17,268 nucleotides of DNA from Kiritimatiellia bacterium (GTDB taxonomy: Bacteria; Verrucomicrobiota; Kiritimatiellia; RFP12; JBMNHG01), in assembly GCA_045627705.1 (NCBI GenBank), contig JAZQOE010000063.1:1-17268 (forward strand), written 5' to 3'. The position numbers were made by a program, and so were the translations under genes. Of the stretch, positions 974-15,399 are shown piece by piece; the first letter of the stretch is position 1, and every line of letters begins with the position of its first letter. The notes beneath the pieces are model-generated. The model did not search any database and was not told the DNA's origin. It was given only the letters and a program-made list of their open reading frames with translations.

Positions 974-1330
974 ACTGGTGGAGGCGGGGGGAATCGAACC
1001 CCCGTCCGAAATGGAGTCACCCAGACATCTACATGCTTGTTCCGTCGTCTAAGTCTCACCCTGGAGAAAGACGGCGGACAAACGCGCTCCAGGGCCAGCG
1101 GCCACGTTGGTACAGGCTTCGCCGTTCGGTCACCCAGCGGCGGGCGGGTCCTGCTGTTGACGCACAGCACCGCCTAGCAGGCGTCAGCGGGTGTGCGCGT
1201 GGCTATAATTAAGCCGCGAGAGCCATGTCGTTGGCAGTTGACGTTTTTCCCGGATTTTTTACGAGGCCAACCAGGATTCCTCGGCATGCAGCCTGGACTT
1301 CAACCACCCCGTCGAAACCAGGACGCCCCC
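974..1330 (-). ncRNA. ssrA: tmRNA (transfer-messenger RNA, SsrA), one-piece, ~357 nt.
   Basis: The minus-strand 5' end reads GGGGGCGUCCUGGUUUCGACGGGG... and contains the conserved UGCAUGCCGAGG...GGUUGGCCUCGUAAAAA pseudoknot region. The tag reading frame GCC AAC GAC AUG GCU CUC GCG GCU UAA UUAUAG encodes (A)ANDMALAA-stop. The 3' end is the tRNA-like T-arm and acceptor GGACGGGGGUUCGAUUCCCCCCGCCUCCACCA. Track ORF 1209..1616(-) ends ...TANDMALAA because it reads through this tag frame. Confidence 0.93.
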
Positions 1331-1801: not shown

Positions 1802-2944
1802 TCAACCAAACCGTTTCTTGTTGAAGTCTTCGAACTGCGCCAGCATGGTTGGGGTTATGGAGGAAGGAATGACCGTGCGGGCTTCTTCAAGGTCGGATGG
1901 GACGACGAGCGGATCGCCGCCGGTATCTATGCTGCGGCGGAAGGCTATTTGACAGGCCTTTTTCGCAAGGCCGACGATATCGCTGCCGGAGTACATGGCA
2001 AGCGCCTCCGCCCATGCGTCGAGATCGATCGACTTGTCGATAGCGGCCTTCTTGAAAGCGCGGGCGAGCATTCCGCGGCGGGCGGGGGCGTCCGGGACCC
2101 CGATAAAAATCTTTTCGTCGAAGCGTCCGGTACGGAACACGGCCTCGTCGATCTCCCACGGCTTGTTGGTCGCGCCGAGGATAAGCAGGATATTCGGGCT
2201 GTCCTTGAAACCGCCGACATCGGCGAGGAACTGTGTGACGAGGCGGTTATCGACAGCCGAGGAACTTTCCGTGCGACGCGGGAGAAGGCCATCGATTTCA
2301 TCGAGGAACAGCACGGCGACAGGCTTGTCCTGCGCGGCGTGGATGAGCCGCGACAGTTTCTGCTCGCTTTCGCCGTGCCACTTCGAGCGGATCTGCGCAC
2401 CGGAAGCATAGAAGAACGGAGCGGAAATCTCGTGGGCGATCGCCTTTCCAAACATCGTCTTGCCATTGCCGGGCGGACCATAGAGCAGGACACCTCCGCC
2501 AGGCTTGATGCCGAGTGCCATGGCCTTTTCCGGCTCGCGCATCGGGTTAATCACCATATCGAAAATCGCGGCCTTGGCGTTCTCCATGCCATCGATGTCG
2601 TCGAAAGAAACCCCGGTGTCGGCGGTGACCTGGAACTCGGAATCATCATCGTTTTCCTGCGGTTGGCCGGACGTGGCGACGGCATCGCGTGATTCGCGCG
2701 ACAACGATGCGAGTGCGGACGGCGGCGACAACTTCGCAGTCTTCAGTTTCTCCGCGATTTCAAGCCAGCCTTCCGCGGTCGATACATAGCTGGCGGCGAC
2801 GGGACCAGTCGATTGTCGCGCAAGGGCGAAGCAAAACTCGGCGGCCTTGGCCGCGTGGAAGATCGCCTTTGCATTGTCGCCAGCCTTGATTGCGGACTCG
2901 CAGGCTGATTCGTGTTCGGACTTCTTGTCGGAGAGGAAGCTCAT
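1802..2944 (-). CDS. Vps4-like AAA+ ATPase (meiotic-clade AAA) with an N-terminal MIT-like three-helix domain and a Vps4-type C-terminal helix.
   Basis: 380 aa with an ATG start. Walker A GPPGNGKT, Walker B VLFLDEID, and second-region-of-homology/arginine-finger motifs LGATNKPWEIDEAVFRTGRFDEKIFIGVPD. SKWHGESEQKLSRLIHAAQ closely parallels the Vps4/katanin/spastin SKWLGESEKLV region. The N-terminal ~75 aa (AIKAGDNAKAIFHAAKAAEFCFALARQ...AEGWLEIAEKLK) resemble the Vps4 MIT domain (…EYLDRAEKLK). The C-terminal …MLAQFEDFNKKRFG parallels the Vps4 C-terminal helix …LKKFTEDFGQEG. GC3 is strongly biased. Confidence 0.88.
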   Translation of the reverse strand: MSFLSDKKSEHESACESAIKAGDNAKAIFHAAKAAEFCFALARQSTGPVAASYVSTAEGWLEIAEKLKTAKLSPPSALASLSRESRDAVATSGQPQENDDDSEFQVTADTGVSFDDIDGMENAKAAIFDMVINPMREPEKAMALGIKPGGGVLLYGPPGNGKTMFGKAIAHEISAPFFYASGAQIRSKWHGESEQKLSRLIHAAQDKPVAVLFLDEIDGLLPRRTESSSAVDNRLVTQFLADVGGFKDSPNILLILGATNKPWEIDEAVFRTGRFDEKIFIGVPDAPARRGMLARAFKKAAIDKSIDLDAWAEALAMYSGSDIVGLAKKACQIAFRRSIDTGGDPLVVPSDLEEARTVIPSSITPTMLAQFEDFNKKRFG

Positions 2945-3478: not shown

Positions 3479-3521
3479 GTTGATTTCCCCTTTTCGACGC
3501 ATGCGATGCGATGGCGGTCGA

Positions 3522-4169
3522 TCATTTGCCGTCGAGGATGCTCTTCACGCGATCCTGGCCGGCGGACACGCGGGCGTCGATTTCCTTGCCGGCGGCGACG
3601 GGTGTCGCGGCGCCACCGATTTCGGCGGCGACCTCCTGTTCGAGCTGGGCGCCGAGATCCTCCATGCTGGGTATGTAATCCTTGGCGGTACCCGTTGCGC
3701 CCTCCATCTCCTTGTTGTACATCTTTTCCCAGAAACGGTCGCCATCGACCTGTTCGCCGAGGAGGTCCTGGGCGGTATCGAAGACATCCATGACCTTTTC
3801 GGGGTCGATGTTCACGACCTTGTTCAAGGCTCCAAGGGCGTCGGCGAACTGGGCGTCGGAACCCGCGACCTGCATCTTCGTAATGTACTGTTCGAAGATC
3901 CAGCGCTTCTGCTCGAGCTTCACCACGAGCGCCTGCGAGGCGCGGTAGCTGACGAGGGCGCGCTGGGCAGCGGCCTTCTCGCCGTTTTTCAGCGCCTCGC
4001 GGGCGGCGTCCCAACTCTTTTTCGCCTCTTTTTCGAGTTCCATCTGGCGATCCTTCACCGAATCCACGGCCTTTTCGGCGTCGCGGAAGGCATGGCGGCG
4101 CTCGCGGCGCTCCTCGCGTCTGCGTTCGGATGGTGACTTGAAGACGTTGAGAATGTCGGCGATATTCAT
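3522..4169 (-). CDS. ESCRT-III / Snf7-family protein (Snf7 and CHMP4-like helical hairpin with an acidic C-terminal tail).
   Basis: 215 aa with an ATG start and a GGAGTG Shine-Dalgarno. The core KNGEKAAAQRALVSYRASQALVVKLEQKRWIFEQYITKMQVAGSDAQFADALGALNKVVNIDPEKVMDVFDTAQDLLGEQ aligns by eye with the Snf7 and CHMP4 region TKGNKvmAknALkkKK...LE...eqqL...E.A....E...AM..GAKAMK..H..mDIDKVDEtMDEIrEQ. The C-terminal DYIPSMEDLGAQLEQEVAAE is acidic and amphipathic, like an ESCRT-III MIM region. The composition is coiled-coil-rich and is not PspA-like. Confidence 0.75.
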   Translation of the reverse strand: MNIADILNVFKSPSERRREERRERRHAFRDAEKAVDSVKDRQMELEKEAKKSWDAAREALKNGEKAAAQRALVSYRASQALVVKLEQKRWIFEQYITKMQVAGSDAQFADALGALNKVVNIDPEKVMDVFDTAQDLLGEQVDGDRFWEKMYNKEMEGATGTAKDYIPSMEDLGAQLEQEVAAEIGGAATPVAAGKEIDARVSAGQDRVKSILDGK

Positions 4170-4224: not shown

Positions 4225-5388
4225 TCAAGGATTGACTGGCACGGCCGCCTTCGGCTGCATGTTTTCATCGCCGGACACGAGGCTCATCAGCCCCGATGCG
4301 TCGATGCCGAGCGAATCGACCATTGTGCGGTTGGACTCCAGGAGATTGCGGAGGCGTTCGACGGAAAGCGGGTGCGTGCGCGTCGGGACGTCATCTACGC
4401 CGGCTGTTTCCTTCATCGCGAAGAAGAGTTCCCAGAACAGCCTGCCGACAAAGGTAGCCGTGGCCGCAGAATCATTTTCCCCGATCGTGGCGTTGATCAT
4501 GGTCGAAGCAAACGAATCCGCCTCGCGCTCCTGGTTGCGCGAGATGTCGAGGTTGTCGTTGATGGTGGAATCGCTGGAATCAAGGTGGCCGAGGACATGG
4601 TGGCCGATCTCATGCGAGAGGGTGCCGGCGACCATTCCCCCGGAAATAGCCTCCATGCCAGACATGAAACTTGGATCTCCGAGATCGGCGGCGCTGATGC
4701 CGCTGTCAATCAAAATGGAAATCGCGTCTTCCTTCGGCATCCTGCCAATCGAACCGATCAGTCCGACGAGCCGTTCGAGGCATTTGGAATCCTCGCCAAG
4801 CGCCATCCTGCGGGAATCCGCCGCTGATGCGCACCCGACAAGCCTGGCGAAATTCCATGCACCGGCGTTGAATTTGATAATCCGGCAGATTTCGCCGCTG
4901 GAATCATCCTTGCGTTTCGTTGCGAACGCATTGATTTCATCGTTATCGTTGTATTCAAGGCGTATGGAGTCGGCGATCGGCTTATAGATCTGATTCTTGG
5001 AAACGGCGTCGTTTGCGATCAGGCTTCCGAATATTTCGGCGAGTCTCTCGTGCGGGGCGTCGAAAATGGGGCCAAAGACCCCGTACTGTCCATTGTCGCT
5101 TGCGCTTCCGGCATTATTCTGCGCCTCCGTTCCGGTGGTCTCGCCTGACGGCCGCGGGCAACGGCCGAAAAGAGGCATTAGCCAGCATCTGACGCCAAAG
5201 AATGAAAGGAACACCAGTACAAGCGCTATCAGGGAGAACCACAGCCAGAATGTGCCGTTGCCGACCTTGCGCTGGCGGGAATATGGCATGGGAGTATCCA
5301 CTGGCGAGGCGGTGTGCGTCGTGCCAAGCCGACGTTCATATTCCTGCTGGAAGATTTCCTTGCGGGTCTTTTTCGGTTGTTCTGCCAT
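4225..5388 (-). CDS. Membrane-anchored HEXXH zinc metallopeptidase. The catalytic motif resembles the ImmA/IrrE (M78, DUF955) or M48 families.
   Basis: 387 aa with an ATG start and a GGAGTGAA Shine-Dalgarno. An N-terminal TM helix (WLWFSLIALVLVFLSFFGV) is followed by HEIGHHVLGH and, ~25 aa on, SRNQEREADSFA (Glu third ligand plus EA(D/N)xFA). This spacing fits ImmA/IrrE-type metalloproteases, although M48 has a similar SR..E.eADaFA motif. Confidence 0.7.
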   Translation of the reverse strand: MAEQPKKTRKEIFQQEYERRLGTTHTASPVDTPMPYSRQRKVGNGTFWLWFSLIALVLVFLSFFGVRCWLMPLFGRCPRPSGETTGTEAQNNAGSASDNGQYGVFGPIFDAPHERLAEIFGSLIANDAVSKNQIYKPIADSIRLEYNDNDEINAFATKRKDDSSGEICRIIKFNAGAWNFARLVGCASAADSRRMALGEDSKCLERLVGLIGSIGRMPKEDAISILIDSGISAADLGDPSFMSGMEAISGGMVAGTLSHEIGHHVLGHLDSSDSTINDNLDISRNQEREADSFASTMINATIGENDSAATATFVGRLFWELFFAMKETAGVDDVPTRTHPLSVERLRNLLESNRTMVDSLGIDASGLMSLVSGDENMQPKAAVPVNP

Positions 5389-5461: not shown

Positions 5462-6061
5462 TTAGAACACAAAACCGAGAATCGGCGACTGGCGGCCGCT
5501 GCCGGACTTGTTCCAGAGGCCGATCTGGAGCCCCATGCCGCATTCCGCGATGTTGAGGATGCCTATCTGGAGGCCGTTCAGCTCCTTTGTCCTGTTCACA
5601 AACCCGCCGATCGCGATGCCGCTGAAACTCTCCGACTTGTTGCCGAGGACATTGACGGCCAGACCACCGGCGTCGCGGTCGCATTCGCCGAACAGCCCGA
5701 GGTCGATGCCGAACATATCGACTGGCTTCGCGCCGATGTTCGGGAAGCTGAGGTTCACGCGGACGCCATAGACCGAGCAGTTGTCGAGCGGCGGGACGGA
5801 GAGCGGTCCGACCGTCAGCGCAAACGGCGATGTCGTCTCCTCCAGCACGACTGGATCGGCTACGACAGCGGTGGCGACAGGCGCGGAAAGATTGATTGGC
5901 GAAACAGGCACCACTGGCAATGGCGCCGGGGCGACAACTACCGATGGCGCAGCAGCACCGCCATTATCGACCGAACCGCGACCGAACGGGGCGTACTCCG
6001 CATCGGCAAAAGCCATGCAGGCCGCGACAGAGGCCATGGCCGCAAACAAGATATTCTTCAT
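5462..6061 (-). CDS. Secreted protein of unknown function, paralog 1. Signal peptide, conserved GLQIG-repeat C-terminal domain ending in Phe, possible small outer-membrane beta-barrel.
   Basis: The track ORF 5462..6328 over-extends. I use the internal ATG at 6059-6061, giving MKNILFAAMASVAACMAFA (signal peptide). The C-terminus ...ELNGLQIGILNIAECGMGLQIGLWNKSGSGRQSPILGFVF is shared with the next gene. Confidence 0.7.
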   Translation of the reverse strand: MKNILFAAMASVAACMAFADAEYAPFGRGSVDNGGAAAPSVVVAPAPLPVVPVSPINLSAPVATAVVADPVVLEETTSPFALTVGPLSVPPLDNCSVYGVRVNLSFPNIGAKPVDMFGIDLGLFGECDRDAGGLAVNVLGNKSESFSGIAIGGFVNRTKELNGLQIGILNIAECGMGLQIGLWNKSGSGRQSPILGFVF

Positions 6062-6102
6062 GACAAGTTCCTTCAAATGCGCCGGCATGCGGCGTAACCG
6101 CA

Positions 6103-6669
6103 TTAGAACACGAAACCGAGGATCGGCGACTGGCGACCGCTGCCGGACTTGTTCCAGAGGCCGATCTGGAGGCCCGAACCGCAATCGGCGATGTTGATGA
6201 GGCCGACCTGGAGGCCGTGGAGTTCGTGGGTCCGATTGAGGAATACCGAAATCTGGATGCCTTCGAACACGCCGGGGCAGTCGTTGTCGAGGACATTGAC
6301 CCAGAGTCCGCCGCCATCGCGGCGGCACTCGCCGCTGAGGCCGACATCGACCGCGTACATGTCTATCGGCACATCGGTCACCTGCGGGATACCAAGATTC
6401 ACTCCGACGCCGTATAGGTTCAAGTCGTGGAGGAAAGGAATGCTGACAGGCCCGATTGTCAGGGCGAACGGGGTGAATCCCTCGCCGAAGTAGTCAGAAC
6501 GCGGGACAACCGGGGGATTCTCCGGATAAACAGTTTCATAGCCGGCACCAACCTTGTGCGGGGATACCAAGCTGGCGTCTCCAGGCCTGACTACCGAATA
6601 AGGGGCGGCTTGGCAGGCCGCGGCCAGCACGAAAAATAGCGAGACAGATGCGAACAACGACTTTTTCAT
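6103..6669 (-). CDS. Secreted protein of unknown function, paralog 2. Signal peptide, same conserved C-terminal domain.
   Basis: 188 aa with an ATG start. MKKSLFASVSLFFVLAAACQA is a signal peptide. The body is conserved with paralog 1 (SPFALT.GP.S.P......YGV.VNL.......D.....D.GL.GEC.RD.GGL.VNVL.N...GI.I..F.NRT.EL.GLQ.G.LNIA.CG.GLQIGLWNKSGSGRQSPILGFVF). Confidence 0.75.
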   Translation of the reverse strand: MKKSLFASVSLFFVLAAACQAAPYSVVRPGDASLVSPHKVGAGYETVYPENPPVVPRSDYFGEGFTPFALTIGPVSIPFLHDLNLYGVGVNLGIPQVTDVPIDMYAVDVGLSGECRRDGGGLWVNVLDNDCPGVFEGIQISVFLNRTHELHGLQVGLINIADCGSGLQIGLWNKSGSGRQSPILGFVF

Positions 6670-7643: not shown

Positions 7644-8861
7644 TCAGCGGACTCGGATCATCGTGTGCGTGACGAACCATACGATTGCCAGGACGACGAC
7701 CAAGAGGATGAAGTTACGCGGTGTGATGACGGAGCGGAACCACGTGGCGAGCAGTTCAAGCCAGTCTGGGCTATAGACACCGCGGCCCTGGGCGGCGGCA
7801 ACGACCTTGAAGCTGTTGCCGATGTCGCGGAACTTGACGTCTGTCACGACCTCGTACCTGGTGTTGTAGCCCGGGGTGGTCGTAAGGGTCAAGCGGTCGA
7901 GGTTCTTGCCCGTCGGGTCAAGGACGATCGTTCCGTTGTCATCGGAGACGGTGACGCTCCCGTTCAAGACAGCCATCCGGCCATCGCGGACATTGGGACC
8001 GAGCTTGCGGGTCAACTGATCAAGCACCGAGTCGCTGAACTGGATGTTTGTCCCGGCGCGCTGGCGGAGGAAGCGGGCCATCATGCGGTCGCTTGCGCCA
8101 CCATTCGGAAGGTCGTACACCACGATGCTATTCTGGCGGCCCTGCCGCGTGACCTCGTTGAGGAACACCTGCGACATAGCGCGCCCAAGAGGCCCGTCGA
8201 AGGGAATCAGGAACGAGCCATAGCCATCGACATCGGCCGGGATGTTCCTGACGAGTTCCTCGGCCGCCAATTCGACGGCGCGCCGCCATTGGGCAGGGAG
8301 TTGCTCGTTGTCTGGACCCATGTCGTCGTATGTGCCTTCGACCGTGCCGCTCCACAGCAGTTCGGATGTCTCGACCTTGTAGAGCCGGAGATTGACGCGG
8401 ACGATCGTCCTGAAGGAATTTTCCTGGGCGCCGACAACCTGGCCGAGCAGGAGTGCGTCGGCGAGTTTCAACTTGCCGATGACGGGGAGGACATTCTTGG
8501 CGTAATCGGTGAAATCAGATGCCTGGTCGAAGACCTTGTCGATATCCTTCCACTCCTCGCGGTCGCTGTGAAGTACGAATCGGAAGTCGGCGGGGACTTG
8601 TCCAAGCGCACCCTCGAAGATGAGGGAGATGTCGGAATCGGATGCGAACATGCCCTGGCTATCGGATGTCATCAACCTGGTGAAAGCGATGTTTTTCGTG
8701 CCCGCGACGCGCGGGTCGAGAGACATCTGCATGATTGCCTGAAACGCCGCGTCTTCGACGGCGTATTGCGCCTCGAGCTGCCCGGCGACAACCGGAGCGG
8801 CCGCGAACAGGGCGGCTGCAACGCAGCCTTTGAACCAACCAATGGTCTTTGTGAAGTTCAT
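7644..8861 (-). CDS. Secreted, C-terminally membrane-anchored protein of unknown function.
   Basis: The track ORF starts 13 codons earlier. I use the ATG at 8859-8861, which has an AGGAAAGG Shine-Dalgarno. MNFTKTIGWFKGCVAAALFAAAPVVAG is a signal peptide. A ~360 aa soluble region ends in a hydrophobic anchor NFILLVVVLAIVWFVTHTMIRVR. Confidence 0.7.
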   Translation of the reverse strand: MNFTKTIGWFKGCVAAALFAAAPVVAGQLEAQYAVEDAAFQAIMQMSLDPRVAGTKNIAFTRLMTSDSQGMFASDSDISLIFEGALGQVPADFRFVLHSDREEWKDIDKVFDQASDFTDYAKNVLPVIGKLKLADALLLGQVVGAQENSFRTIVRVNLRLYKVETSELLWSGTVEGTYDDMGPDNEQLPAQWRRAVELAAEELVRNIPADVDGYGSFLIPFDGPLGRAMSQVFLNEVTRQGRQNSIVVYDLPNGGASDRMMARFLRQRAGTNIQFSDSVLDQLTRKLGPNVRDGRMAVLNGSVTVSDDNGTIVLDPTGKNLDRLTLTTTPGYNTRYEVVTDVKFRDIGNSFKVVAAAQGRGVYSPDWLELLATWFRSVITPRNFILLVVVLAIVWFVTHTMIRVR

Positions 8862-8909
8862 GGTGTTAACCTTTCCTATTTGACAGAAACAGACAAGCAT
8901 TCAAGAAAT

Positions 8910-9857
8910 TCAGCCCAGTTCCGGGCTTTCGGTTATGCCGTCGCGGTCGCGTGACGGCCTTTCCGGCATTGTTTCATCGGCCGATGCGACGGGAGTGGCG
9001 GCCGGGTCGGCGGCGGGGACATCCCACGCGCCATCGGAATCGAACTCCGAGAGCGCGGCGTCGAAGGAACCGTCGTCGCGATCCCTCCTGCGGCCGGCCT
9101 TGTCGAGGTCGCCAAGAGCATCCTGGAGATCCTCGGCATCATCGGACTTCTCCTCGATGGTATCGGCAAGACGGTCCACCATGTCCTCGTCGAGCGGGCC
9201 GCGAAGCCCATGGGCGAGCACCTCCATGAAACGACCCTTCACGCTGGCGATCGACTTCTCGTTCTCGCAAAGCAGCGCGTATTCCCGTTCCAGGCCCTTG
9301 TACTGGGCCATGAGCGCCTCGAGTTCCATCTTGAGGATGCGGCGGCGCACTGGCGAAGCGGCTTCGTACGCCTTCTTCTTCTCGACAATCCCGCGATAGG
9401 CGGCGTCGAGTTCGGCGGAGGCGGCGTCGCGGCGGCGGCGGTTGCCGTCGAGGGCGCCGTTGAGCGAAACCAGCATCGCTTCCGGCGACCGATCCACGTG
9501 GATCTTCGACCAAAGGCTGCGCAGTCCGCCGCCGACCTTGCCGGCGAACGAGACGGCCTCCGCCATCGCCTTGGCGGCGAGTTCCTTCGGGGCGGACTTG
9601 ACCAGCTCGGCCTCCCGCAGGTCGCGCTCGCCCTCCGCCCTTTCGTTTTCCTTGTCCATCTTCTCCCCTTCCTTTCGGTCCGCCGCCTTCGGCGCCTTCC
9701 CGTCTTCCTTCCAGCCATGCGCGGGGCAACGGCCATTCCCGCCATGCGCGTGGAGCTGGCAGAACACGGCCTCGCAACCCGGTTCCGCGCAATGGCCGCC
9801 AATCGCCCAGCGATTGGGAAGCACCTGTTGGCAGATACAACATCTCGGTTCAGCCAT
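8910..9857 (-). CDS. Zinc-finger protein whose central and C-terminal region is ESCRT-III/Snf7-like (second ESCRT-III paralog).
   Basis: The track start is TTG. I use the ATG at 9855-9857, which has a GGGGTG Shine-Dalgarno. The N-terminus MAEPRCCICQQVLPNRWAIGGHCAEPGCEAVFCQLHAHGGNGRCPAHGW carries 8 Cys/His ligands (treble-clef, B-box or FYVE-like spacing). A Lys/Glu-rich linker follows, then helices RRRILKMELEALMAQYKGLEREYALL...GPLDEDMVDRLADTIEEKSDDAEDLQDAL that parallel Snf7 alpha2-alpha5 (…mDIDKVDEtMDEIrEQvElgDEIsDAI). The tail DDGSFDAALSEFDSDGAWDVP is acidic. Confidence 0.6.
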   Translation of the reverse strand: MAEPRCCICQQVLPNRWAIGGHCAEPGCEAVFCQLHAHGGNGRCPAHGWKEDGKAPKAADRKEGEKMDKENERAEGERDLREAELVKSAPKELAAKAMAEAVSFAGKVGGGLRSLWSKIHVDRSPEAMLVSLNGALDGNRRRRDAASAELDAAYRGIVEKKKAYEAASPVRRRILKMELEALMAQYKGLEREYALLCENEKSIASVKGRFMEVLAHGLRGPLDEDMVDRLADTIEEKSDDAEDLQDALGDLDKAGRRRDRDDGSFDAALSEFDSDGAWDVPAADPAATPVASADETMPERPSRDRDGITESPELG

Positions 9858-9935
9858 TGCGCACCCCACTGTAAACAACGTTTTTGTTATTTACATAATG
9901 ATGGTTTATCATAATTGTTGTTTGTCTGTCCATAT
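9858..9935 (-). promoter_or_regulatory. AT-rich island (~30% GC) between the FHA paralog and the zinc-finger ESCRT-III gene. Candidate internal promoter or regulatory spacer.
   Basis: A sharp compositional drop in an otherwise ~65% GC locus. It is the only intergenic gap in the cluster longer than 75 nt. No convincing hexamers were identified. Confidence 0.25.
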
Positions 9936-11276
9936 TTATTTTTGTTTATTTTTCTTATATTTCTTATACACGGGATTGTATTCCGTCACGCGAATGAGTC
10001 CCGCAGCACTTTGGAATTCCATCCCTGGTTCAAGAACGCCCGAACCTACGTTGCCGGTACTCCAGAAGAAGCCGCCGGCATCCGACCGCGCCACGATGAA
10101 ACCAGCGAGCGCAGGGATGACGACGCCGAAATCGAAGCATGACCAAAGGGCAACGAAGACCTCCGGATAGTCGTTTTTCTGCTGGATTACCACGCATGGC
10201 CTGATGCCGGTGCCGCACCAATCGCGCGATGGCACCTGGCAGACCGGGCACAGGCCGGCCGCCATCGGACTGTAGTATGCCACGGAAAGGGAAAAACTGC
10301 TTTCGCAACCCGTCGCGGGCGTGATTACGCCGGAATTGTGCGCCGCGTCGAGTATGCAGGCCTCCCCGGAAATGCGCGTGCCGTTCCAGAAGGTGCCGCA
10401 TGATGATGCATCCTTCAGGATCACCGAGGATCCCGCGCCGCAGATTATGCAGTGGTGGCGGCTGATCCTGCTTGATGCCGCATGCTCCTCGGCCGTCGTC
10501 TGGCATTTCTCCTGGAGAACGATCGTGTTGTCGCGGTGGCGCCCAATGGTGATTTCCTCCTTCGGGATAAGATGAATCAGAGTGCCGGCGATTTCAAGCG
10601 TGAGGTCTCCGCTGTAGGCGGGCGCCGTCTGCGCCGCCGCACATTGCGCCTGGGGCATGCTCGTCAGCTCCAGCGGCACGAGACGATAGGCGCGCGCTTC
10701 GCCATCGACCACCCTGCGCAGTTCCTCGAAGGAACTTTCGCCGGAATGCCGCAGCGAAAGGTCCTGTATGGCGTCGGCGGCATCCTGGGAAAGCCTGACG
10801 TCGGCAGCATGGCCGCATTGGATGTCGTTTCGGATGTTGAATACTATGTTTTCGGCGCACTTGCCGACCTCTTCTGAACGCGCGACGAAAAACGAGACAT
10901 TTCCGTCGAAGCTGTACGCTACGCCGTTCAGCACGAATGAAAGGATGATGTCCAGGGCATGGACGCCGGCGATGCCCGCGTCGATCTGCACGTTGTACTC
11001 GCGCATCGCCGCGAGAATCTGCCAGTTCTTGCTGTATTGCCTTCCGCTGCCCTGGAAACAGAGCGACAATGTCACATCCGAAAGGAATCCCTGTGCCTGG
11101 ATTGCCGGGCCGATGCGGAAGCGGAGGATGCCACTGCCGCGTTCGATGAGAAAGCAAAGGCTGTCGATCTCAAGCCTGACGGGGCAGTCGCCCGCCTGTG
11201 CCGCGAGCGGACTCCCGCATCGGTCGCAGAACTCGCCGGTGGCGGCGTGGCTTCCACATTTTGGACAAGTGGCCAT
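9936..11276 (-). CDS. Zinc-ribbon / FHA-domain protein, paralog B. N-terminal zinc ribbon, central FHA domain, conserved Cys-containing C-terminal domain of unknown function, Lys-rich tail.
   Basis: 446 aa with an ATG start. The N-terminus MATCPKCGSHAATGEFCDRCGSP is a zinc ribbon. FHA-like ITIGRHRDNTIVLQ...SRISRHHCII...GSSVILKDASSCGTFWNGTRISGE fits GR..N.IVL...SR.HA.I...D.S.NGTfvNG. The C-terminus WCGTGIRPCVVIQQKNDYPEVFVALWSCFDFG...GGFFWS...LEPGMEF...VTEY is shared with paralog A. The terminal VYKKYKKNKQK is encoded in the AT-rich island. Confidence 0.8.
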   Translation of the reverse strand: MATCPKCGSHAATGEFCDRCGSPLAAQAGDCPVRLEIDSLCFLIERGSGILRFRIGPAIQAQGFLSDVTLSLCFQGSGRQYSKNWQILAAMREYNVQIDAGIAGVHALDIILSFVLNGVAYSFDGNVSFFVARSEEVGKCAENIVFNIRNDIQCGHAADVRLSQDAADAIQDLSLRHSGESSFEELRRVVDGEARAYRLVPLELTSMPQAQCAAAQTAPAYSGDLTLEIAGTLIHLIPKEEITIGRHRDNTIVLQEKCQTTAEEHAASSRISRHHCIICGAGSSVILKDASSCGTFWNGTRISGEACILDAAHNSGVITPATGCESSFSLSVAYYSPMAAGLCPVCQVPSRDWCGTGIRPCVVIQQKNDYPEVFVALWSCFDFGVVIPALAGFIVARSDAGGFFWSTGNVGSGVLEPGMEFQSAAGLIRVTEYNPVYKKYKKNKQK

Positions 11277-11303
11277 GGCTTTAGTGGCTTAACTCCGCGG
11301 GAA

Positions 11304-12809
11304 TCACACGCCGGACTGGCGGTAGGGCGTTACCGCGACCGGTCCGTACGCCGAGTTGAGGGACATTCCGGGAACCAGGCGCCCGACATGGTGCTGCGGC
11401 GAACTCCATGCGAAACCGCCATCGGCACGCTTGATCCAGATTCCTTCCAGTCCGGGATCCGCATTGCCGAGGTTGAAGCATGACCAGAGCGCGACGAAGG
11501 TCTCGCGCGGGCCGTCGTTCGAGACGATGCGCAAACAGGGGCGACATCCGCCGCCGCACCATTCGGGTTTCGGGCCGACATCGCACGAACGGCAGAAATC
11601 GCAGGGCATGAAGGCGCGGATCCCGAAGGAAAACACGTCGTCGCCCGGCATTCCGCCAAGGAACACATCGGCTCCATCGTCGCCGATGAAATCGGTGATG
11701 TCCGCGGCGCCTTCGACATGGAGGACGCCCCAGGCCGCCGCGCCGCGGGCGCAGTCGAAGTATGTCCCGCGCGTCGATGCGATGCGCCCGCCGCGGTCGT
11801 CGACGGAGCCGTCGTGGAGCATCACGCGGCCCCCGTCGCAGTCGAAGTAGCAGTGCATGCGGCTCACCTTCCTCGTGTCGAAGCGCTCGCGGGCGTTGCC
11901 GAGCGTCCCCGGACGTACCACGATGGTATTCGAGCGACTGCGGCCGAGAAGAATCCGATTGCGCGCCACGAGGTGTATCATTCGCCCCTCCACGTTGAGG
12001 GTGATTGCGTCGGATGAATCATGCGGCGCGGCCGCATCGCCGAGTTCCTGCGCCCTGAAAGCCATGGCCTGGGGATCGCCTGCGGCCCCGGCCATGCGGA
12101 CGCTGGAAGAAGCCGCGCCAACGGCTCCACCAGCCGCGTAATTCGCGGTGAAGGCAGCGGGCGACACTCCGATAGACGGGCCGACACCCGGACGCGGCGA
12201 CCTCATTGGCATGGCCACGACTGGCTTGACCGGCACGCCCGGGACAAACGCGGGATGCGGGACGACCGCGACCGCCGGGGGAACAACCGAAACCGCCGGC
12301 ACCGGCGCGATAGCCAGCGAGGGATGCGACACGACCACCTGCGGCGCAGCGGGATTGACAACCGTCACTCCTGGATGGACTGGCGCCGCGGGCGGAACCG
12401 CGGAAACCACGGCCGCAGGCGGAGGCGGCGCGGCTACGACCGGTGCAGACCCGGCGAATGGCGGCGGAACAGGGCCGGGAATGGCGGCTGCGGCGCCAGG
12501 GATCACGGCCGCCGGAACCACGCCGGGGGCGACCGGAGCGACCACCGCCTCTGGAAGGGGGCTGGGCATCACGGTGGCGGCATGGCGCAGATAGCTATTT
12601 GACGGCGCAACCTGTGGCACGGCCGGCATCTCCGGAACAGCCGGAAGTCCAACCGGCGAGACAGCCGCCGCGACTTCGCCAGACATGGCATCCACCGGAG
12701 GTGTCGCATCCGATGCCGCGGAAGGCGCGGGCATCGCCAGCGGCGCACCGCAGCGCTCGCAGAAAGCGCCTGGCGATACATTGAATCCGCATTTGGGGCA
12801 CTTGACCAT
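11304..12809 (-). CDS. Zinc-ribbon / FHA-domain protein, paralog A. N-terminal zinc ribbon, ~180 aa Pro/Ala/Val-rich disordered linker, FHA domain, same conserved C-terminal domain.
   Basis: 501 aa with an ATG start and a GGGAAG Shine-Dalgarno. MVKCPKCGFNVSPGAFCERCGAP is a zinc ribbon. FHA-like ILLGRSRSNTIVVRP...VSRMHCYFDCDGGRVMLHDGS...STRGTYFD. C-terminus WCGGGCRPCLRIVSNDGPRETFVALWSCFNLG...GGFAWS...LVPGMSL...VTPY (~45% identity to paralog B over ~85 aa). Confidence 0.8.
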   Translation of the reverse strand: MVKCPKCGFNVSPGAFCERCGAPLAMPAPSAASDATPPVDAMSGEVAAAVSPVGLPAVPEMPAVPQVAPSNSYLRHAATVMPSPLPEAVVAPVAPGVVPAAVIPGAAAAIPGPVPPPFAGSAPVVAAPPPPAAVVSAVPPAAPVHPGVTVVNPAAPQVVVSHPSLAIAPVPAVSVVPPAVAVVPHPAFVPGVPVKPVVAMPMRSPRPGVGPSIGVSPAAFTANYAAGGAVGAASSSVRMAGAAGDPQAMAFRAQELGDAAAPHDSSDAITLNVEGRMIHLVARNRILLGRSRSNTIVVRPGTLGNARERFDTRKVSRMHCYFDCDGGRVMLHDGSVDDRGGRIASTRGTYFDCARGAAAWGVLHVEGAADITDFIGDDGADVFLGGMPGDDVFSFGIRAFMPCDFCRSCDVGPKPEWCGGGCRPCLRIVSNDGPRETFVALWSCFNLGNADPGLEGIWIKRADGGFAWSSPQHHVGRLVPGMSLNSAYGPVAVTPYRQSGV

Positions 12810-12827
12810 GACGGGCTTCCCTGCCTG

Positions 12828-14762
12828 CTACTTGATATTGTTGAACTGCTGCGGCGGAGGAAGCGGCTGAATAGCCTTCTTCGCCGCCTCGTTGATCGGG
12901 GAGAGAAGCGTTCCCATGCGGCTGTCCTCTCGGTCGTAGGAATCGTCGTGGAGATCCTCCACCTTCTTTACGAAGCGTTCCGCGTCCTCGCGCGTCTTGT
13001 CCAGCTCGACCTGCTTGAGCCTTTCGAGCGCAACCGCGGCGGCGGGACTCTGGGCCGCGAGAGCCGCGAGTATCTGCTCCGGCGTGCGCGAGTTGTCGGA
13101 GGCGCGGAGCGCGGTGAGCGCGCCAGCGGCGATCGGGTCGGCGTTGTTCGCGGCAGCCTCGGCGAGAATGTGCTCGACATCGAGGGCGGCGTCGCGGTCG
13201 AGCTTGGCCTTCTGGAGCAGGCGAGCGCGAAGGGCGTCGTCATCGACATCCATCAGGCGTTCCTCGAGGGACATGCCGTGGCGGCGGTCGGCCTCGGCCT
13301 GCCTGTAGTCGAGGTTCACCTGGTTCTTTTCGCGGCGGACGCCGATCCACTCCTTCGCCTGGCGGACCTGCTCGTCCGCCGACATCCCGGAAATCTGCGT
13401 GGCATTCGTGGAGTTCTTGAGCGCCTCGCCGCGGTTGAAGTCCCCGATCTTGCCGGCGTTGGCGATGCTGTTATCGACCGCGCGGTCGCCGAGCCCGAAC
13501 TGGTGTGCCTGGTCCTCGTCTTCCACGGTGTAGGCGTGGTGGCGGAGTTCGTCGGCATGGCCGAGGCGCTCTATGTCGAGCATGCGCTGGTAAACTTCGG
13601 CCTCGTGCGAGCGCTCGCGCTTGAGGACTTCCCACTCGTGGTTGATTTCCTCGACCGTCAAGCCATATTCGTTGTTGAGGTCGAGGATGTAGCGCCGCAT
13701 GTCGTCGGCGTCCTTGTACTGCGACATGTTGCCGTGATCGACCGTCTTGCGAAGCGCGTCCCGGTATTCCTCGTAGCGGCGCTGCTGGTCGAGCGTGCGG
13801 CCATAGCCATACTGGGTCTCGTTGTCCTCAACCGAATCGCCGGCATGGGCCGTGACGTTCTGCTCGATGGTGGCGGCGAGCTTCTCGTATTCGTCGCCGG
13901 TGAATTCGGCGGAGGAAACGCGCGCGACTTCGAGTCCGCTGGCGGCCAGGTCATCCGCAACAAGGCGCGTCATCGACTCCTGCAGGCGGATGCGGCGCTG
14001 CGGGTCGCGGACAAGGTCGTCGAGCGTGGTCGCGGTACACATCGAATCGACGGCGAAGCGCATGACGGATTCGAGCCGTGCCGAAATCTCCGCCAGCGAC
14101 GTGCTGCGGTCAGACTTCATCAGGTTGGCCACCAGCGCCCGCGCGGAATCCTTGTCGCCGCGGAAACGGAGTATCACCTCGCCGTAGAATTCGATCGGAT
14201 AGCGCTCGGCTGTCGAAAGCGCCTCGATGTGCACTGGAAACGCCACTTCGGCGGCATCGACCAGCACCACTGAACGCGGCGGCGGATTGCCGAACCAGTT
14301 GATCTTGTGCGCCAGGCTGTCCGGGGCATGGCGGCCGCTTTCGAGGATGCCGCGCACCTCTCCGCCATCCATGATGATCGCGAGCGTTCCTTCCTGGATC
14401 TGGAGGCCGTCCTGGAGGATGCGCTTCACGTCGCCGATCTCGAAGCGCTGGGCGAACATCCCTGGCTCCTTGCGCCATACGCCCCCGGCCATCGCCGAAC
14501 GGTCGTCAGGGTAGAGCGGGGTGTTGCAGTGCGGGCAGAAGCGCGAGTCGTTGCCAATCCACTTGCCGCACGACGGACAGCGCCACCAGCCGCCAGGCGC
14601 AGGGCTGCCGCAGCGGTTGCAGAAGCGGGCGTTCTTCCTCACCCGGTTGCCGCAGCGCGGCCACTTGGGATCAAGCTTGGCCGCCTCGAGGGCATCGCCC
14701 GAAAGCGCCCTCTGCGTGTTTGGATCGATCAAGGCGTCGCAACGGTCTGTAAAGATTCCCAT
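12828..14762 (-). CDS. Double-zinc-ribbon SPFH (band-7 / flotillin-like) protein with a long C-terminal coiled coil.
   Basis: 644 aa with an ATG start and an AAAGGGA Shine-Dalgarno. Two CxxC...CxxC ribbons: RCGNRVRKNARFCNRCGSP and RCPSCGKWIGNDSRFCPHCNTP. The SPFH-like core is IQEGTLAIIMDGGEVRGILESGRH...SVVLVDAAEVAFPVHIEALSTAERYPIEFYGEVILRF...ARALVANLMKSDRSTSLAEISARLESVMRFAVDSMCTATTLDDLV...RIRLQESMTRLVADDLAASGLEVARVSS. A ~330 aa Glu/Arg/Ala/Leu-rich coiled coil follows. Confidence 0.8.
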   Translation of the reverse strand: MGIFTDRCDALIDPNTQRALSGDALEAAKLDPKWPRCGNRVRKNARFCNRCGSPAPGGWWRCPSCGKWIGNDSRFCPHCNTPLYPDDRSAMAGGVWRKEPGMFAQRFEIGDVKRILQDGLQIQEGTLAIIMDGGEVRGILESGRHAPDSLAHKINWFGNPPPRSVVLVDAAEVAFPVHIEALSTAERYPIEFYGEVILRFRGDKDSARALVANLMKSDRSTSLAEISARLESVMRFAVDSMCTATTLDDLVRDPQRRIRLQESMTRLVADDLAASGLEVARVSSAEFTGDEYEKLAATIEQNVTAHAGDSVEDNETQYGYGRTLDQQRRYEEYRDALRKTVDHGNMSQYKDADDMRRYILDLNNEYGLTVEEINHEWEVLKRERSHEAEVYQRMLDIERLGHADELRHHAYTVEDEDQAHQFGLGDRAVDNSIANAGKIGDFNRGEALKNSTNATQISGMSADEQVRQAKEWIGVRREKNQVNLDYRQAEADRRHGMSLEERLMDVDDDALRARLLQKAKLDRDAALDVEHILAEAAANNADPIAAGALTALRASDNSRTPEQILAALAAQSPAAAVALERLKQVELDKTREDAERFVKKVEDLHDDSYDREDSRMGTLLSPINEAAKKAIQPLPPPQQFNNIK

Positions 14763-14808
14763 CTCAAGTCCCTTTCATCCGCCACCTATGGCTAGCGGCA
14801 AACAGATT

Positions 14809-15168
14809 TCACTTCCTAGTCTCATTCTTGCCGGCATTTCCCGCGCAATCCTTGCAGAGGCGCAGGCCAAGACGCGTCCAGCAGTCATTGCAGATCGGCG
14901 CCGCGCAGCCATCGCCCTGGCAGTGGTGCTTCAGCGACACGCGGCTGCGATAGACGTTGCCGCAGATAGAGCATTCGCCACCGCCGGAATTCTCGCGCTT
15001 CTTGTCCTCGAGATACACATCGAGGTCGGCGCGTGAAACCCTGTACAACTTTCCAAGGCGAAAAGCCGGAAGTTCGCCACTCCGCGCCAGTTTGTAAACG
15101 AGCTGATAGGTCACGCCGAGATAATCGGCGACCTCTTCAAGGCTCATATACTCTTTATCGGTTGGCAT
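14809..15168 (-). CDS. Excisionase/MerR-superfamily HTH DNA-binding protein with a C-terminal zinc-ribbon domain. Likely regulator and first gene of the cluster.
   Basis: 119 aa with an ATG start and an AAGGA Shine-Dalgarno. SLEEVADYLGVTYQLVYKLARSGELPAFRLGKLYRVSRADLDVYLE matches the excisionase-family HTH (HTH_17-like). C-terminus CSICGNVYRSRVSLKHHCQGDGCAAPICNDCWTRLGLRLCKDC. Confidence 0.8.
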   Translation of the reverse strand: MPTDKEYMSLEEVADYLGVTYQLVYKLARSGELPAFRLGKLYRVSRADLDVYLEDKKRENSGGGECSICGNVYRSRVSLKHHCQGDGCAAPICNDCWTRLGLRLCKDCAGNAGKNETRK

Positions 15169-15399
15169 TATTGAATCCTTTTCGTTTCGTTGATGACATC
15201 AAGTTATCATTATTGGTTTTTGATGTCAATGCGAAATTTTGAAATATTTTGTTTATGTTTGTTTATATTTTATGTTTACAAAATCGGGGCCAAGACAACC
15301 CTGAAACCGACAGTTGCAAGGCAAAGACATCATACAGTTTTTCCAGTGCAGAACAAAGTCTTTGATTTTCGAGTTCAATAAGCTGTAAAATCATTTGCA
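15169..15399. promoter_or_regulatory. AT-rich divergent promoter region carrying operator-like palindromes: TTGATGACATCAA (15190-15202) and TTGATGTCAA (15220-15229). Also a TGTTTA/TGTTTAT direct-repeat tract (15247-15280).
   Basis: Read directly from the sequence. A 13-bp perfect palindrome with a 1-nt centre and a related half-site repeat lie 22-60 nt upstream of the HTH gene start. The region separates the minus-strand cluster from the plus-strand secreted-protein genes. Confidence 0.4.

What the first reader, a model, noticed from the sequence alone, without database searches (positions are those of the whole stretch)
8910..15168. Zinc-ribbon heads on five consecutive proteins of the upstream module
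The HTH regulator, the SPFH protein, both FHA proteins and the zinc-finger ESCRT-III-like protein each carry CxxC...CxxC-type metal-binding modules. Four are N-terminal and one is C-terminal. This many zinc ribbons in one operon is striking. It suggests a shared assembly or targeting mechanism, such as mutual zinc-ribbon interactions, lipid binding or redox sensing, rather than coincidence. Bacillus YdjG, a zinc-ribbon protein in the PspA operon, shows this association occurs elsewhere, but not at this scale.
Basis: inference. Interest (0 to 1): 0.6.

Follow-up and report, generated by a model that had tools for sequence, protein, structure and literature searches.

The report
Two zinc-module families, one membrane system
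Five neighbouring genes of a gut Kiritimatiellia bacterium do each encode a small cysteine-rich zinc module, but the modules are of two unrelated kinds: ordinary zinc ribbons on three proteins, and an uncatalogued two-zinc "cross-brace" finger shared by the operon's regulator and a coiled-coil protein, all within a conserved ESCRT-like membrane system.

Summary
They are not five zinc ribbons.

- **Ribbons.** The SPFH protein carries a double four-Cys ribbon and each FHA paralogue carries a single one.
- **Cross-brace finger.** The HTH regulator (C-terminal) and the coiled-coil protein E (N-terminal) share an eight-ligand module. Its spacing is CxxC-x13-C-x4-C-x4-CxxC/H-x7/8-CxxH.
- **Evidence for the finger.** In E's family, ligands 3, 4, 7 and 8 are lost together while 1, 2, 5 and 6 stay. 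The model's structural neighbours are FYVE, PHD, RING and B-box fingers. No Pfam model matches it.
- **Promiscuity.** The finger also occurs fused to HTH_17, CHAT, Ser/Thr kinase and papain-like domains in other proteins.

The locus is a conserved system: HTH, SPFH, FHA, a Snf7-like protein, an AAA+ ATPase, protein E and envelope proteins. Relatives usually add Ser/Thr kinases.

"Five in a row" reflects this genome's gene order plus an FHA duplication. The conserved fact is four head-bearing families.

A docking or targeting role is plausible, as is regulator-to-E coupling through the shared finger. Both are inferred. E's ESCRT-III identity is unproven.

The parts
14809..15168 (-). Gene A: HTH_17 (excisionase-type) regulator of 119 aa with a C-terminal binuclear finger. 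It is the first gene of the system.
   Evidence: Pfam HTH_17 E=1.3e-15. TIGR01764 excise E=3e-16. 209 homologues, all HTH_17. It is the first gene ahead of the SPFH gene in 11 loci.
14845..14973 (-). A's eight-ligand zinc module: C66-x2-C69-x13-C83-x4-C88-x4-C93-x2-C96-x8-C105-x2-C108. The last ligand is His in about 90% of homologues.
12828..14762 (-). Gene B: double zinc ribbon + SPFH/Band_7 + long helical tail. 644 aa, no TM segment.
   Evidence: Zn_Ribbon_1 1.4e-10, DZR 3.2e-8, Band_7 3.6e-8. No TM segment.
14526..14741 (-). B's head. Ribbon 1 is C8...C37-x10-C48-x2-C51, with its first knuckle split by a 28-aa insertion and a basic loop. Ribbon 2 is C62-x2-C65-x10-C76-x2-C79, flanked by GGWW and KW.
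   Evidence: C8 is invariant. The L011 and L024 orthologues have a canonical CxxC with no insertion, while L025 and L026 have longer insertions.
11304..12809 (-). Gene C: zinc ribbon + Pro/Ala/Val-rich linker + FHA + C-terminal domain. 501 aa, a paralogue of D.
   Evidence: FHA 2.3e-4. C against D: 35% identity over 231 aa, and 57% over the ribbons.
12750..12800 (-). C's N-terminal zinc ribbon: C4-x2-C7-x9-C17-x2-C20.
   Evidence: The FHA-family ribbons align with B's head at probability 94.1%.
9936..11276 (-). Gene D: zinc ribbon + unknown middle domain + FHA + C-terminal domain. 446 aa.
   Evidence: FHA 1e-10. Most relatives have a single orthologue.
11217..11267 (-). D's N-terminal zinc ribbon: C4-x2-C7-x9-C17-x2-C20.
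8910..9857 (-). Gene E: N-terminal binuclear finger + helical hairpin + conserved acidic C-terminal motif (FDAxLxxF). 315 aa from the ATG; an upstream TTG at 9878 is less likely. The family has no Pfam model.
   Evidence: 167 homologues with no Pfam domain. AF2 pLDDT 80.9, with a hairpin at 125-218. The AAA gene is adjacent to E in many loci.
9717..9842 (-). E's eight-ligand head: C6-x2-C9-x13-C23-x4-C28-x4-C33-x2-H36-x7-C44-x2-H47.
   Evidence: Head pLDDT >90. Of 101 family clusters, 93 keep only ligands 1, 2, 5 and 6, and six keep all eight.
11535..11603 (-). An extra Cys cluster after C's FHA domain: C403, C406, C409, C418, C422, C425.
Evidence: The CxxC-x7-8-C core is conserved in most FHA orthologues.
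10194..10250 (-). An extra Cys cluster after D's FHA domain: C343, C346, C354, C361.
3522..4169 (-). Gene K: Snf7-like (ESCRT-III family) protein with no Cys. It belongs to the same system.
   Evidence: Pfam Snf7 hits 9 of 9 orthologues, best E=4.7e-7. The window copy scores 22.7 bits, below the gathering score of 27.3.
1802..2944 (-). [quoted passage not shown]
   Evidence: AAA 1.4e-34. CDC48 196 bits, PAN 178, CdvC 166 bits, all below the NCBIfam cut-offs. No MIT domain was detectable.
15201..15229 (-). Conserved promoter upstream of A: TTGACA-N17-(TGA)TAACTT.
   Evidence: The same TTGACA-N17-TGATAnnnT arrangement lies upstream of A in L008, L011, L013 and L017.

Best explanation
**What is there.** The five clusters are structural zinc sites of two unrelated folds. 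They sit on the soluble cytoplasmic components of a conserved Kiritimatiellia membrane system.

The system comprises an HTH regulator (A), an SPFH protein (B), one or two FHA phosphothreonine readers (C, D), a Snf7-like protein (K), an AAA+ ATPase (M), the coiled-coil protein E and envelope proteins F-J. Most relatives add Ser/Thr kinases.

**How it most likely works.**

1. **Ribbons as docking heads.** The four-Cys ribbons on B, C and D are small rigid heads that bring TM-less proteins to the membrane platform. B's double ribbon sits where other SPFH proteins carry their membrane anchor. It has a conserved basic loop and a Trp-rich flank, which suits binding to the membrane surface or to a membrane partner. 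This resembles soluble YdjI needing YdjG/H in Bacillus. The FHA ribbons would tether phospho-readers to the same place.
2. **Shared finger as a coupling device.** A and E share a two-zinc cross-brace finger. It gives the regulator and the AAA-adjacent coiled-coil protein a common binding specificity, either for each other or for one shared partner. E's assembly state could then feed back on transcription, in the logic of PspA-PspF.

**Shown:** motifs, conservation, two families, the co-loss pattern, synteny and the kinase linkage.

**Inferred:** zinc binding itself, docking, membrane affinity and A-E coupling.
For: - **Ligands.** They are conserved in all orthologues.
- **Two families.** A against E's head scores 32.1. 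The column-shuffled null is 9.8 +/- 2.3, and 0 of 200 shuffles reach the observed score. The FHA ribbons align with B's head at probability 94%. A or E against the ribbons aligns only 8-16 columns.
- **Specificity.** The finger is found only in A and E within about 250 kb of loci.
- **Solubility.** A, B, E, K and M have no TM segment.
- **B's head.** The basic loop and the GGWW..KW flank are conserved.
- **Kinases.** Ser/Thr kinases lie in or beside the system in nearly every locus, and several carry their own Zn modules.
- **A as regulator.** A is consistently the first gene, behind a conserved promoter.
- **Precedents.** YdjI is recruited by YdjG/H and is needed for PspA foci. YdjG has two ZnRs. 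Archaeal ESCRT loci include an SPFH-CC-ZnR protein. N-terminal ZnRs occur on membrane-proximal DO-GTPases.
Against: - There is no direct evidence for metal binding, membrane binding or any head-head contact.
- Both module types are promiscuous and occur in unrelated contexts. Their presence could simply be inherited with each family.
- E lost zinc site 2 in most of its family, while A keeps all eight ligands. Any A-E contact therefore cannot depend on site 2.
- L009 has B without an adjacent A.
- The ribbon loops differ between B (basic, Trp-rich) and the FHA proteins (EGxF). A single common docking site is not implied.
Confidence: 0.5

Rival explanations
1. **Independent generic modules.** Each zinc module is only a fold-stabilising element inherited with its own protein family. 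ZnR-FHA, ZnR-SPFH and HTH_17-finger would be stock architectures. Their co-occurrence would reflect how common such modules are on soluble signalling proteins, with no shared assembly or targeting mechanism.
For: - HTH_17 + the same finger recurs in unrelated 400-475 aa proteins. The finger is also fused to CHAT, Pkinase and Peptidase_C1 domains.
- Ribbons and DnaJ-type Cys repeats also occur on neighbouring kinases.
- "Five in a row" results from this contig's gene order plus an FHA duplication.
- E's site 2 was lost with no change in A.
- Anabaena FraH appears to have a ZnR-Pro-rich-FHA architecture in a different context. This is from my own knowledge; the primer-encoded N-terminus MIVCPNC is.
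Against: - The finger is rare overall yet occurs twice in this system, and nowhere else in 250 kb of related DNA.
- All four families keep their heads through extensive gene-order shuffling and down to 30-40% identity.
- ZnR-SPFH recurs specifically with PspA/ESCRT-III systems in Firmicutes, Methanobacteriales and here.
Confidence: 0.3
2. **Redox or metal sensing.** The Zn-thiolate clusters act as thiol switches, especially on regulator A. Oxidants or metal stress in this anaerobic gut lineage would release zinc and switch the system on.
For: A is a DNA-binding regulator whose only other domain is the Cys-rich finger. The lineage comes from rumen and gut MAGs. Zn-Cys redox switches are an established mechanism, from general knowledge of RsrA, Hsp33 and DksA-type sites.
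Against: His occupies conserved ligand positions, and the spacing is that of structural cross-brace and ribbon sites. No thioredoxin, peroxidase or metal-homeostasis genes appear in any locus. A site was lost in E rather than conserved as a sensor.
Confidence: 0.1
3. **FYVE-like lipid binding.** The A/E finger would bind phosphoinositides or acidic lipids directly, like the FYVE domains of ESCRT-0.
Against: The R(R/K)HHCR signature is not conserved. Homologues read SLKQTC, SLKNFC and similar, and E has GGRC. No Pfam FYVE hit appears even at E<=10. A is a DNA-binding regulator. Bacteria are not known to make PI3P (general knowledge).
Confidence: 0.05

Closest known systems
Bacillus subtilis pspA-ydjGHI (samGHI) operon
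   Same: An ESCRT-III-superfamily protein is encoded with a soluble SPFH protein and zinc-ribbon proteins. YdjG has two ZnRs, and the band-7 protein has a ZnR. The SPFH protein needs partners to reach the membrane and is required for PspA foci.
   Different: - Here the ribbon is N-terminal on the SPFH protein itself.
- There is no YdjG/YdjH-like TM-ZnR or TPM protein.
- The superfamily member is Snf7-like rather than PspA.
- The system adds an AAA+ ATPase, FHA proteins, kinases, an HTH-finger regulator, protein E and envelope proteins.
Archaeal ESCRT variants: Halo_FHA and Meth_adaptin (Makarova et al. 2024, PMC10936438)
   Same: Vps4-type AAA + ESCRT-III are found with FHA-domain proteins and Ser/Thr kinases (Halo_FHA), or with an SPFH + coiled-coil + zinc-ribbon protein (Meth_adaptin).
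   Different: - This system is bacterial. [quoted passage not shown]
- The AAA here scores higher against Cdc48 and PAN than against CdvC, and no MIT domain is detectable.
- The FHA and SPFH components occur together, alongside an HTH-finger regulator and the E-F-G-H-J envelope module.
Binuclear cross-brace treble-clef fingers (RING, PHD, FYVE, B-box; prokaryotic RING families of Burroughs et al. 2011; TRIM B-box + coiled coil)
   Same: - There are eight Cys/His ligands in four pairs.
- The co-loss pattern implies interleaved sites.
- The structural neighbours are FYVE, PHD and RING fingers.
- E's finger + antiparallel coiled coil resembles the TRIM5 B-box + coiled coil.
   Different: - No Pfam family reaches significance. 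The best are SLX1_C at 0.009 and Prok-RING_4 at 0.015.
- No ubiquitin-system genes were seen nearby.
- The FYVE lipid motif is absent.
- The spacing is distinct, with C-x4-C (or C-x2-C) for ligands 3 and 4 and a conserved C-x2-C-W ... R-x-C-x2-H.
Anabaena FraH
   Same: It has an N-terminal CPxC ribbon; the primer-encoded start is MIVCPNC. From my own knowledge it also has a Pro-rich linker and a C-terminal FHA domain, as in protein C. It is required for intracellular membrane reorganisation and associates with a membrane-bending protein, a kinase and a phosphatase.
   Different: It is cyanobacterial, sits in a different genomic context, and lacks the post-FHA Cys-containing domain of C and D. 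I recalled its domain architecture and could not verify it here, because the primary papers are not held.
PspF-PspA partner switch
   Same: The proposed logic is the same: an effector's assembly state controls the operon's transcription factor.
   Different: PspF is an AAA+ enhancer-binding protein that binds PspA directly. Here the link is only inferred, from a zinc finger shared by an excisionase-type HTH protein and E. No interaction has been shown.

Membership tests
Zinc ribbon (Pfam Zn_Ribbon_1/DZR, Zn_Beta_Ribbon clan): B, C, D | Two CxxC knuckles about 9-20 residues apart, giving four Cys ligands | tested here: met
   B ribbon 2, C and D have CxxC-x9/10-CxxC. B ribbon 1 has four conserved Cys, with knuckle 1 split by an insertion. 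The knuckle is a canonical CxxC in the L011 and L024 orthologues.
Zinc ribbon (Pfam Zn_Ribbon_1/DZR, Zn_Beta_Ribbon clan): B, C, D | Profile match above the curated threshold | tested here: inconclusive
   B passes: Zn_Ribbon_1 41 bits against 25, and DZR 34 against 27.3. C (15 bits) and D (13 bits) fall below the 27-bit cut-offs. The FHA-family ribbons do align with B's head at HHalign probability 94.1%.
Zinc ribbon: A and E | A single four-Cys site formed by two knuckles | tested here: not met
   A and E have eight ligands in fixed register. HHalign against the ribbon families covers only one knuckle (8-16 columns, score 14-19).
Binuclear cross-brace treble-clef finger (RING/PHD/FYVE/B-box class): A and E | Eight Cys/His ligands in four pairs, conserved | tested here: met
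   In A, seven Cys are invariant and the last ligand is H or C. In E's eight-ligand subclade all eight are conserved.
Binuclear cross-brace treble-clef finger (RING/PHD/FYVE/B-box class): A and E | Interleaved coordination: pairs 1+3 form site 1 and pairs 2+4 form site 2 | tested here: met
   The evidence is indirect. 93 of 101 E-family clusters retain exactly ligands 1, 2, 5 and 6 and have lost 3, 4, 7 and 8.
Binuclear cross-brace treble-clef finger (RING/PHD/FYVE/B-box class): A and E | Significant structural or sequence match to a solved member | tested here: inconclusive
FYVE domain | R(R/K)HHCR and WxxD lipid-binding motifs | tested here: not met
   Only the window's A has KHHC. The homologues and E lack it. 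There is no Pfam FYVE hit.
ESCRT-III/PspA/Snf7 superfamily: protein E | Sequence or profile similarity to Snf7 or PspA_IM30 | tested here: not met
   The window protein has no Pfam hit. Three of 24 members give a weak Snf7 hit, best E=0.039. There is no PDB sequence hit. HHalign against the operon's own Snf7-like family gives probability 0.3%.
ESCRT-III/PspA/Snf7 superfamily: protein E | Helical hairpin core with following helices, specific by fold search | tested here: inconclusive
ESCRT-III/Snf7: protein K | Pfam Snf7 match | tested here: inconclusive
   Nine of nine orthologues hit Snf7, best E=4.7e-7. The window copy scores 22.7 bits, below the gathering score of 27.3. The PDB profile hit to yeast Snf7 is only E=0.26.
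Vps4/CdvC: protein M | N-terminal MIT domain + single AAA + Vps4 C-terminal helix; closest to Vps4/CdvC | tested here: not met
   A single classical AAA domain is present. However, CDC48 (196 bits) and PAN (178) outscore CdvC (166 bits, cut-off 650). No MIT domain is found by single sequence or by profile. The resemblance in architecture and the linkage to the Snf7-like gene remain.
Known anti-phage defence systems (PADLOC) | A match to system-specific models | tested here: not met
   Only generic hits appear: IetA-like AAA, the zincin motif of Lit/U41, and the mad1 HTH.

The most novel reading that the evidence does not exclude
The locus would be a genuine bacterial ESCRT-type machine in PVC-group bacteria: a Snf7-like polymer, a Vps4-like AAA+ ATPase, an SPFH platform and FHA/Ser-Thr-kinase control. 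Its architecture parallels the archaeal FHA- and SPFH-linked ESCRT systems. In it, a previously undescribed two-zinc cross-brace finger would mediate a direct partner switch between the operon's HTH regulator and the AAA-adjacent coiled-coil protein E, itself a very divergent ESCRT-III or adaptor. The zinc ribbons would be the membrane-docking heads of the soluble parts.
Probability: 0.2. Interest if true: 0.8.

Novelty: new variant of a known kind. Interest (0 to 1): 0.55.

Why it matters
[quoted passage not shown] One other analysis does record Vps4-like ATPase transfers into bacteria and bacterial Snf7- and PspA-type proteins linked to AAA+ ATPases, so the pairing itself is not without precedent.

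This conserved Kiritimatiellia locus joins a Snf7-like protein and a single-domain AAA+ ATPase to SPFH, FHA and kinase partners. Those are the same accessory themes reported for archaeal ESCRT variants.

The zinc modules are the clearest handles on how the soluble parts assemble:

- The ribbon head on a TM-less SPFH protein gives a concrete, mutable candidate for membrane recruitment.
- The finger shared by the regulator and protein E gives a specific, testable hypothesis for feedback control.
- The finger is also a widespread, uncatalogued prokaryotic domain. It is fused to kinases, CHAT and papain-like proteases and HTH proteins, and would merit a family definition.

Tried and rejected
1. 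**FYVE idea.** It was prompted by KHHC in A. I rejected it because the motif is not conserved and there is no Pfam FYVE hit.
3. **MIT domain in M.** Single-sequence and profile searches of PDB were both negative.
4. **Known defence system.** PADLOC gave only generic hits.
5. **Third homologue search, with D.** It returned only two proteins, because the word index fails on this divergent family. It could not show whether ZnR-FHA is common elsewhere.
6. **Ribbon-less FHA, SPFH or HTH_17 paralogues in the flanks.** None are present, so the lineage-wide refutation test could not be run.
7. **Source names for finger-bearing proteins.** No names or taxonomy were available.
8. **Primary papers.** Burroughs et al. 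2011 and Merino-Puerto et al. 2011 are not held.
9. **AF2 coordinates.** They are not exposed, so Cys-Cys geometry could not be measured.
10. **Inverted repeat.** A perfect 9-bp inverted repeat overlaps A's promoter, but it is not conserved in other loci, so I do not claim it as an operator.

Full report
**Gene map**

The window is a complete 17,268-bp MAG contig. It carries a 13-gene, co-directional minus-strand cluster with short intergenic gaps.

| Gene | Coordinates | Annotation |
|---|---|---|
| A | 14809-15168 | HTH_17, E=1.3e-15 |
| B | 12828-14762 | Zn_Ribbon_1 1.4e-10, DZR 3.2e-8, Band_7/SPFH 3.6e-8 |
| C | 11304-12809 | FHA 2.3e-4 |
| D | 9936-11276 | FHA 1e-10 |
| E | 8910-9857 | no Pfam hit |
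| F-I | between E and J | envelope and secreted proteins |
| J | 4225-5388 | M48-like zincin |
| K | 3522-4169 | Snf7, 8.7e-5 |
| L | 2960-3502 | multi-TM protein |
| M | 1802-2944 | AAA, 1.4e-34 |

A tmRNA gene (976-1330) follows M.

**Checking the observation**

Each of A to E has a Cys or Cys/His cluster at the stated end. None of the other nine proteins has a single CxxC.

In related loci only 4 of 104 non-system ORFs contain CxxC-x6-25-CxxC. All four lie beside system genes, and three are Ser/Thr kinases.

The ligands are conserved in orthologues. A's eight positions are invariant or nearly so across its family of 209 homologues. B's eight Cys, the FHA ribbons and E's head are present in every genome locus once true start codons are used. 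Several database entries that appear to lack E's head are start-codon miscalls.

**The modules form two families, not one**

B's ribbon 2, C and D read CPxCG-x9/10-(F)CxxCG, the classical ribbon.

B's ribbon 1 looked degenerate (WPRC). However, C8 is invariant. The L011 and L024 orthologues have a canonical CxxC there, while other orthologues carry insertions of 28-55 aa. It is therefore a complete ribbon with a split first knuckle.

The FHA-family ribbons align with B's head at HHalign probability 94% over 22 columns.

A and E are different. Both have eight ligands with almost identical spacing:

- A: C-x2-C-x13-C-x4-C-x4-C-x2-C-x8-C-x2-C/H
- E: C-x2-C-x13-C-x4-C-x4-C-x2-H-x7-C-x2-H

Their profiles align over 46 columns at probability 91.8% and score 32.1. 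Column-shuffled controls give 9.8 +/- 2.3, with a maximum of 18.9, and 0 of 200 reach the observed score. Either profile against the ribbons aligns only one knuckle.

**Fold class of the A/E module**

- Within E's family, 93 of 101 clusters keep exactly ligands 1, 2, 5 and 6 and have lost 3, 4, 7 and 8. Six clusters, including the window's, keep all eight. This is what a cross-brace predicts, where pairs 1+3 and pairs 2+4 form the two sites.
- Sequence hints agree: the SLX1 RING-like domain at E=0.0034 in PDB, and weak Pfam hits to SLX1_C, Prok-RING_4, B-box and ZZ.
- The FYVE lipid-binding signature is not conserved.

**The finger is a promiscuous, uncatalogued domain**

A profile search of 1.84 billion cluster representatives gave 320 hits at E<=1e-3, many of them C2H2 noise. 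Among them are full-length copies in other architectures:

- HTH_17 + one or two copies + a C-terminal domain of about 300 aa with no Pfam match
- CHAT + two copies
- Pkinase + a C-terminal copy
- Peptidase_C1 + a copy
- TM + a copy

E-like proteins from more distant lineages carry complete heads of the form CCxCGxxLPNRYAVAGxC...LHW...C..H.

Within about 250 kb of related loci the domain occurs only in A and E orthologues.

**System context**

Seventeen genome loci (Kiritimatiellae/Kiritimatiellia MAGs, plus MAGs labelled Lentisphaeraceae or Verrucomicrobia; the host-labelled ones come from ruminant gut) and nine further contigs show a conserved set in several orders:

- A-B-FHA-K-(L or kinase)-M-E-F-G-H/I-J
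- A-B-FHA-G-F-E-K-M
- split modules

AAA-E adjacency is frequent. A is consistently the first gene, behind a conserved TTGACA-N17-TGATAnnnT promoter that is preceded by conserved AAAC/TATAAA repeats.

Most relatives have one FHA gene. The window's C and D are paralogues, 35% identical over the FHA and C-terminal domains. "Five consecutive" is therefore contingent; "four head-bearing families" is the conserved fact.

Pfam-confirmed Ser/Thr kinases lie inside or beside the system in nearly every relative. Some carry an N-terminal ribbon or DnaJ-type CxxCxGxG repeats.

K hits Pfam Snf7 in nine of nine orthologues, best E=4.7e-7.

M is a single-domain classical AAA+. It scores CDC48 > PAN > CdvC, and no MIT domain is detectable.

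E shows no profile similarity to K, at probability 0.3%. It gives only non-specific hairpin matches to ESCRT-III, Vipp1 and CdvB.

**Comparison with what is known**

- Ravi et al. describe B. subtilis YdjG with two ZnRs and a band-7 + ZnR partner of PspA.
- Scholz et al. show that soluble YdjI needs YdjG/H to reach the membrane and is needed for PspA foci.
- Makarova et al. describe archaeal ESCRT loci with FHA + kinases, or with SPFH + coiled coil + ZnR. [quoted passage not shown] A 2025 review says Vps4-like ATPases appear absent from bacteria.
- N-terminal ZnRs are common on membrane-proximal bacterial NTPases.
- Anabaena FraH begins MIVCPNC and acts in membrane reorganisation with a kinase and a phosphatase. 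Its ZnR-Pro-rich-FHA architecture is from my own recollection.

**Mechanism**

The head-bearing proteins are the system's soluble cytoplasmic parts. A, B and E have no TM segment; C and D give only weak or low-complexity hydrophobic signals that are not clear TM segments.

B's double ribbon occupies the position of the membrane anchor in other SPFH proteins. It has a conserved basic loop (RVRKNARF) and a Trp-rich flank (GGWW-CPxC-KW).

I therefore favour docking heads for B, C and D, with confidence about 0.5. For A and E I favour a shared finger that gives them a common binding specificity, coupling E's state to transcription.

All of this is inference from architecture.

Points against this reading:

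- Both module types are promiscuous.
- E lost site 2 in most lineages while A did not.
- The ribbon loops differ between B and the FHA proteins.

The main rival is independent generic modules (0.3). Redox sensing (0.1) and FYVE-like lipid binding (0.05) have little support.

**Verdict**

The zinc ribbons themselves are ordinary.

The added value lies in three things:

- the A/E cross-brace finger
- the split-knuckle double ribbon on a TM-less SPFH protein
- the recognition that this is a conserved bacterial system combining Snf7-like, AAA+, SPFH, FHA and kinase components

Noticed in passing
L002:4014-6533; L011:7216-8820; L012:3395-5692; L007:3715-5061; L003:6430-9669; L005:6034-8136: Ser/Thr protein kinases (Pfam Pkinase, 1e-39 to 1e-47) are embedded in or flank the system in almost every related locus, often between the Snf7-like and AAA genes. 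One has an N-terminal zinc ribbon, two have DnaJ-type CxxCxGxG repeats, one has a Yip1 domain and two have FGE-sulfatase domains. The window itself has no kinase.
   Followed up: partly
window 15201-15277 (minus strand): A conserved promoter lies upstream of gene A: TTGACA-N17-TGATAACTT. It is preceded by two AAACATAAA repeats (15252-15260 and 15269-15277). Both elements recur upstream of A in L008, L011, L013 and L017. A perfect 9-bp inverted repeat TGACATCAA-N17-TTGATGTCA (15194-15228) overlaps the promoter, but only in the window.
   Followed up: partly
window 11535-11603 and 10194-10250: Both FHA proteins have a further Cys cluster (CxxC-x7-8-C, with more Cys in C) in the domain after FHA. 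It is conserved in most orthologues. The fold of this C-terminal domain is unknown; archaeal FHA-ESCRT proteins carry a CdvA-like domain there.
   Followed up: no
window 14610-14741; L011, L024, L025, L026 orthologues: The first knuckle of B's ribbon 1 is split by an insertion of variable length (0, 28 or about 55 aa) between Cys1 and Cys2. The sequence of the 28-aa form (ALIDPxTGRALxGEAL) is conserved among the orthologues that carry it.
   Followed up: partly
window 8910-9000 (E C-terminus) and 3522-3620 (K C-terminus): E ends with a conserved acidic-hydrophobic motif (DFDAELAGFDGELG). K has a conserved IPSMEDLxxxLxxEV helix. Both are candidates for motifs that bind the N-domain of the AAA ATPase (MIM-like). 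This was not tested.
   Followed up: no
window 5462-6669: H and I are tandem paralogues: small secreted proteins ending in ...GLQIGLWNKSGSGRQSPILGFVF. Most relatives have one or two copies.
   Followed up: no
window 4225-5388: J is a single-TM zincin (HExxH, weak M48). It has weak similarity to the Lit/U41 phage-exclusion peptidases in PADLOC and NCBIfam. It is part of the conserved envelope module and is duplicated in L014 and L017.
   Followed up: no
L024:16934-17923: One relative inserts a caspase-like Peptidase_C14 gene between the Snf7-like and AAA genes.
   Followed up: no
window 976-1330 and 540-806: A tmRNA gene (tag ANDMALAA) lies directly downstream of the AAA gene, followed by a small GIY-YIG protein. 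tmRNA genes are common integration sites; no mobile-element signature was examined.
   Followed up: no
P0056, P0069, P0082, P0104 and similar (E family): Many database entries of the E family start downstream of the zinc head because of start-codon miscalls. The genomic ORFs (for example L002) include the head.
   Followed up: yes
L018:5558-6967 and 8657-9655: Two paralogous Ser/Thr kinases each end in the A/E-type finger, and one also starts with a zinc ribbon. They sit on a metagenome contig unrelated to this system, beside ExbB/ExbD and TPR genes.
   Followed up: partly
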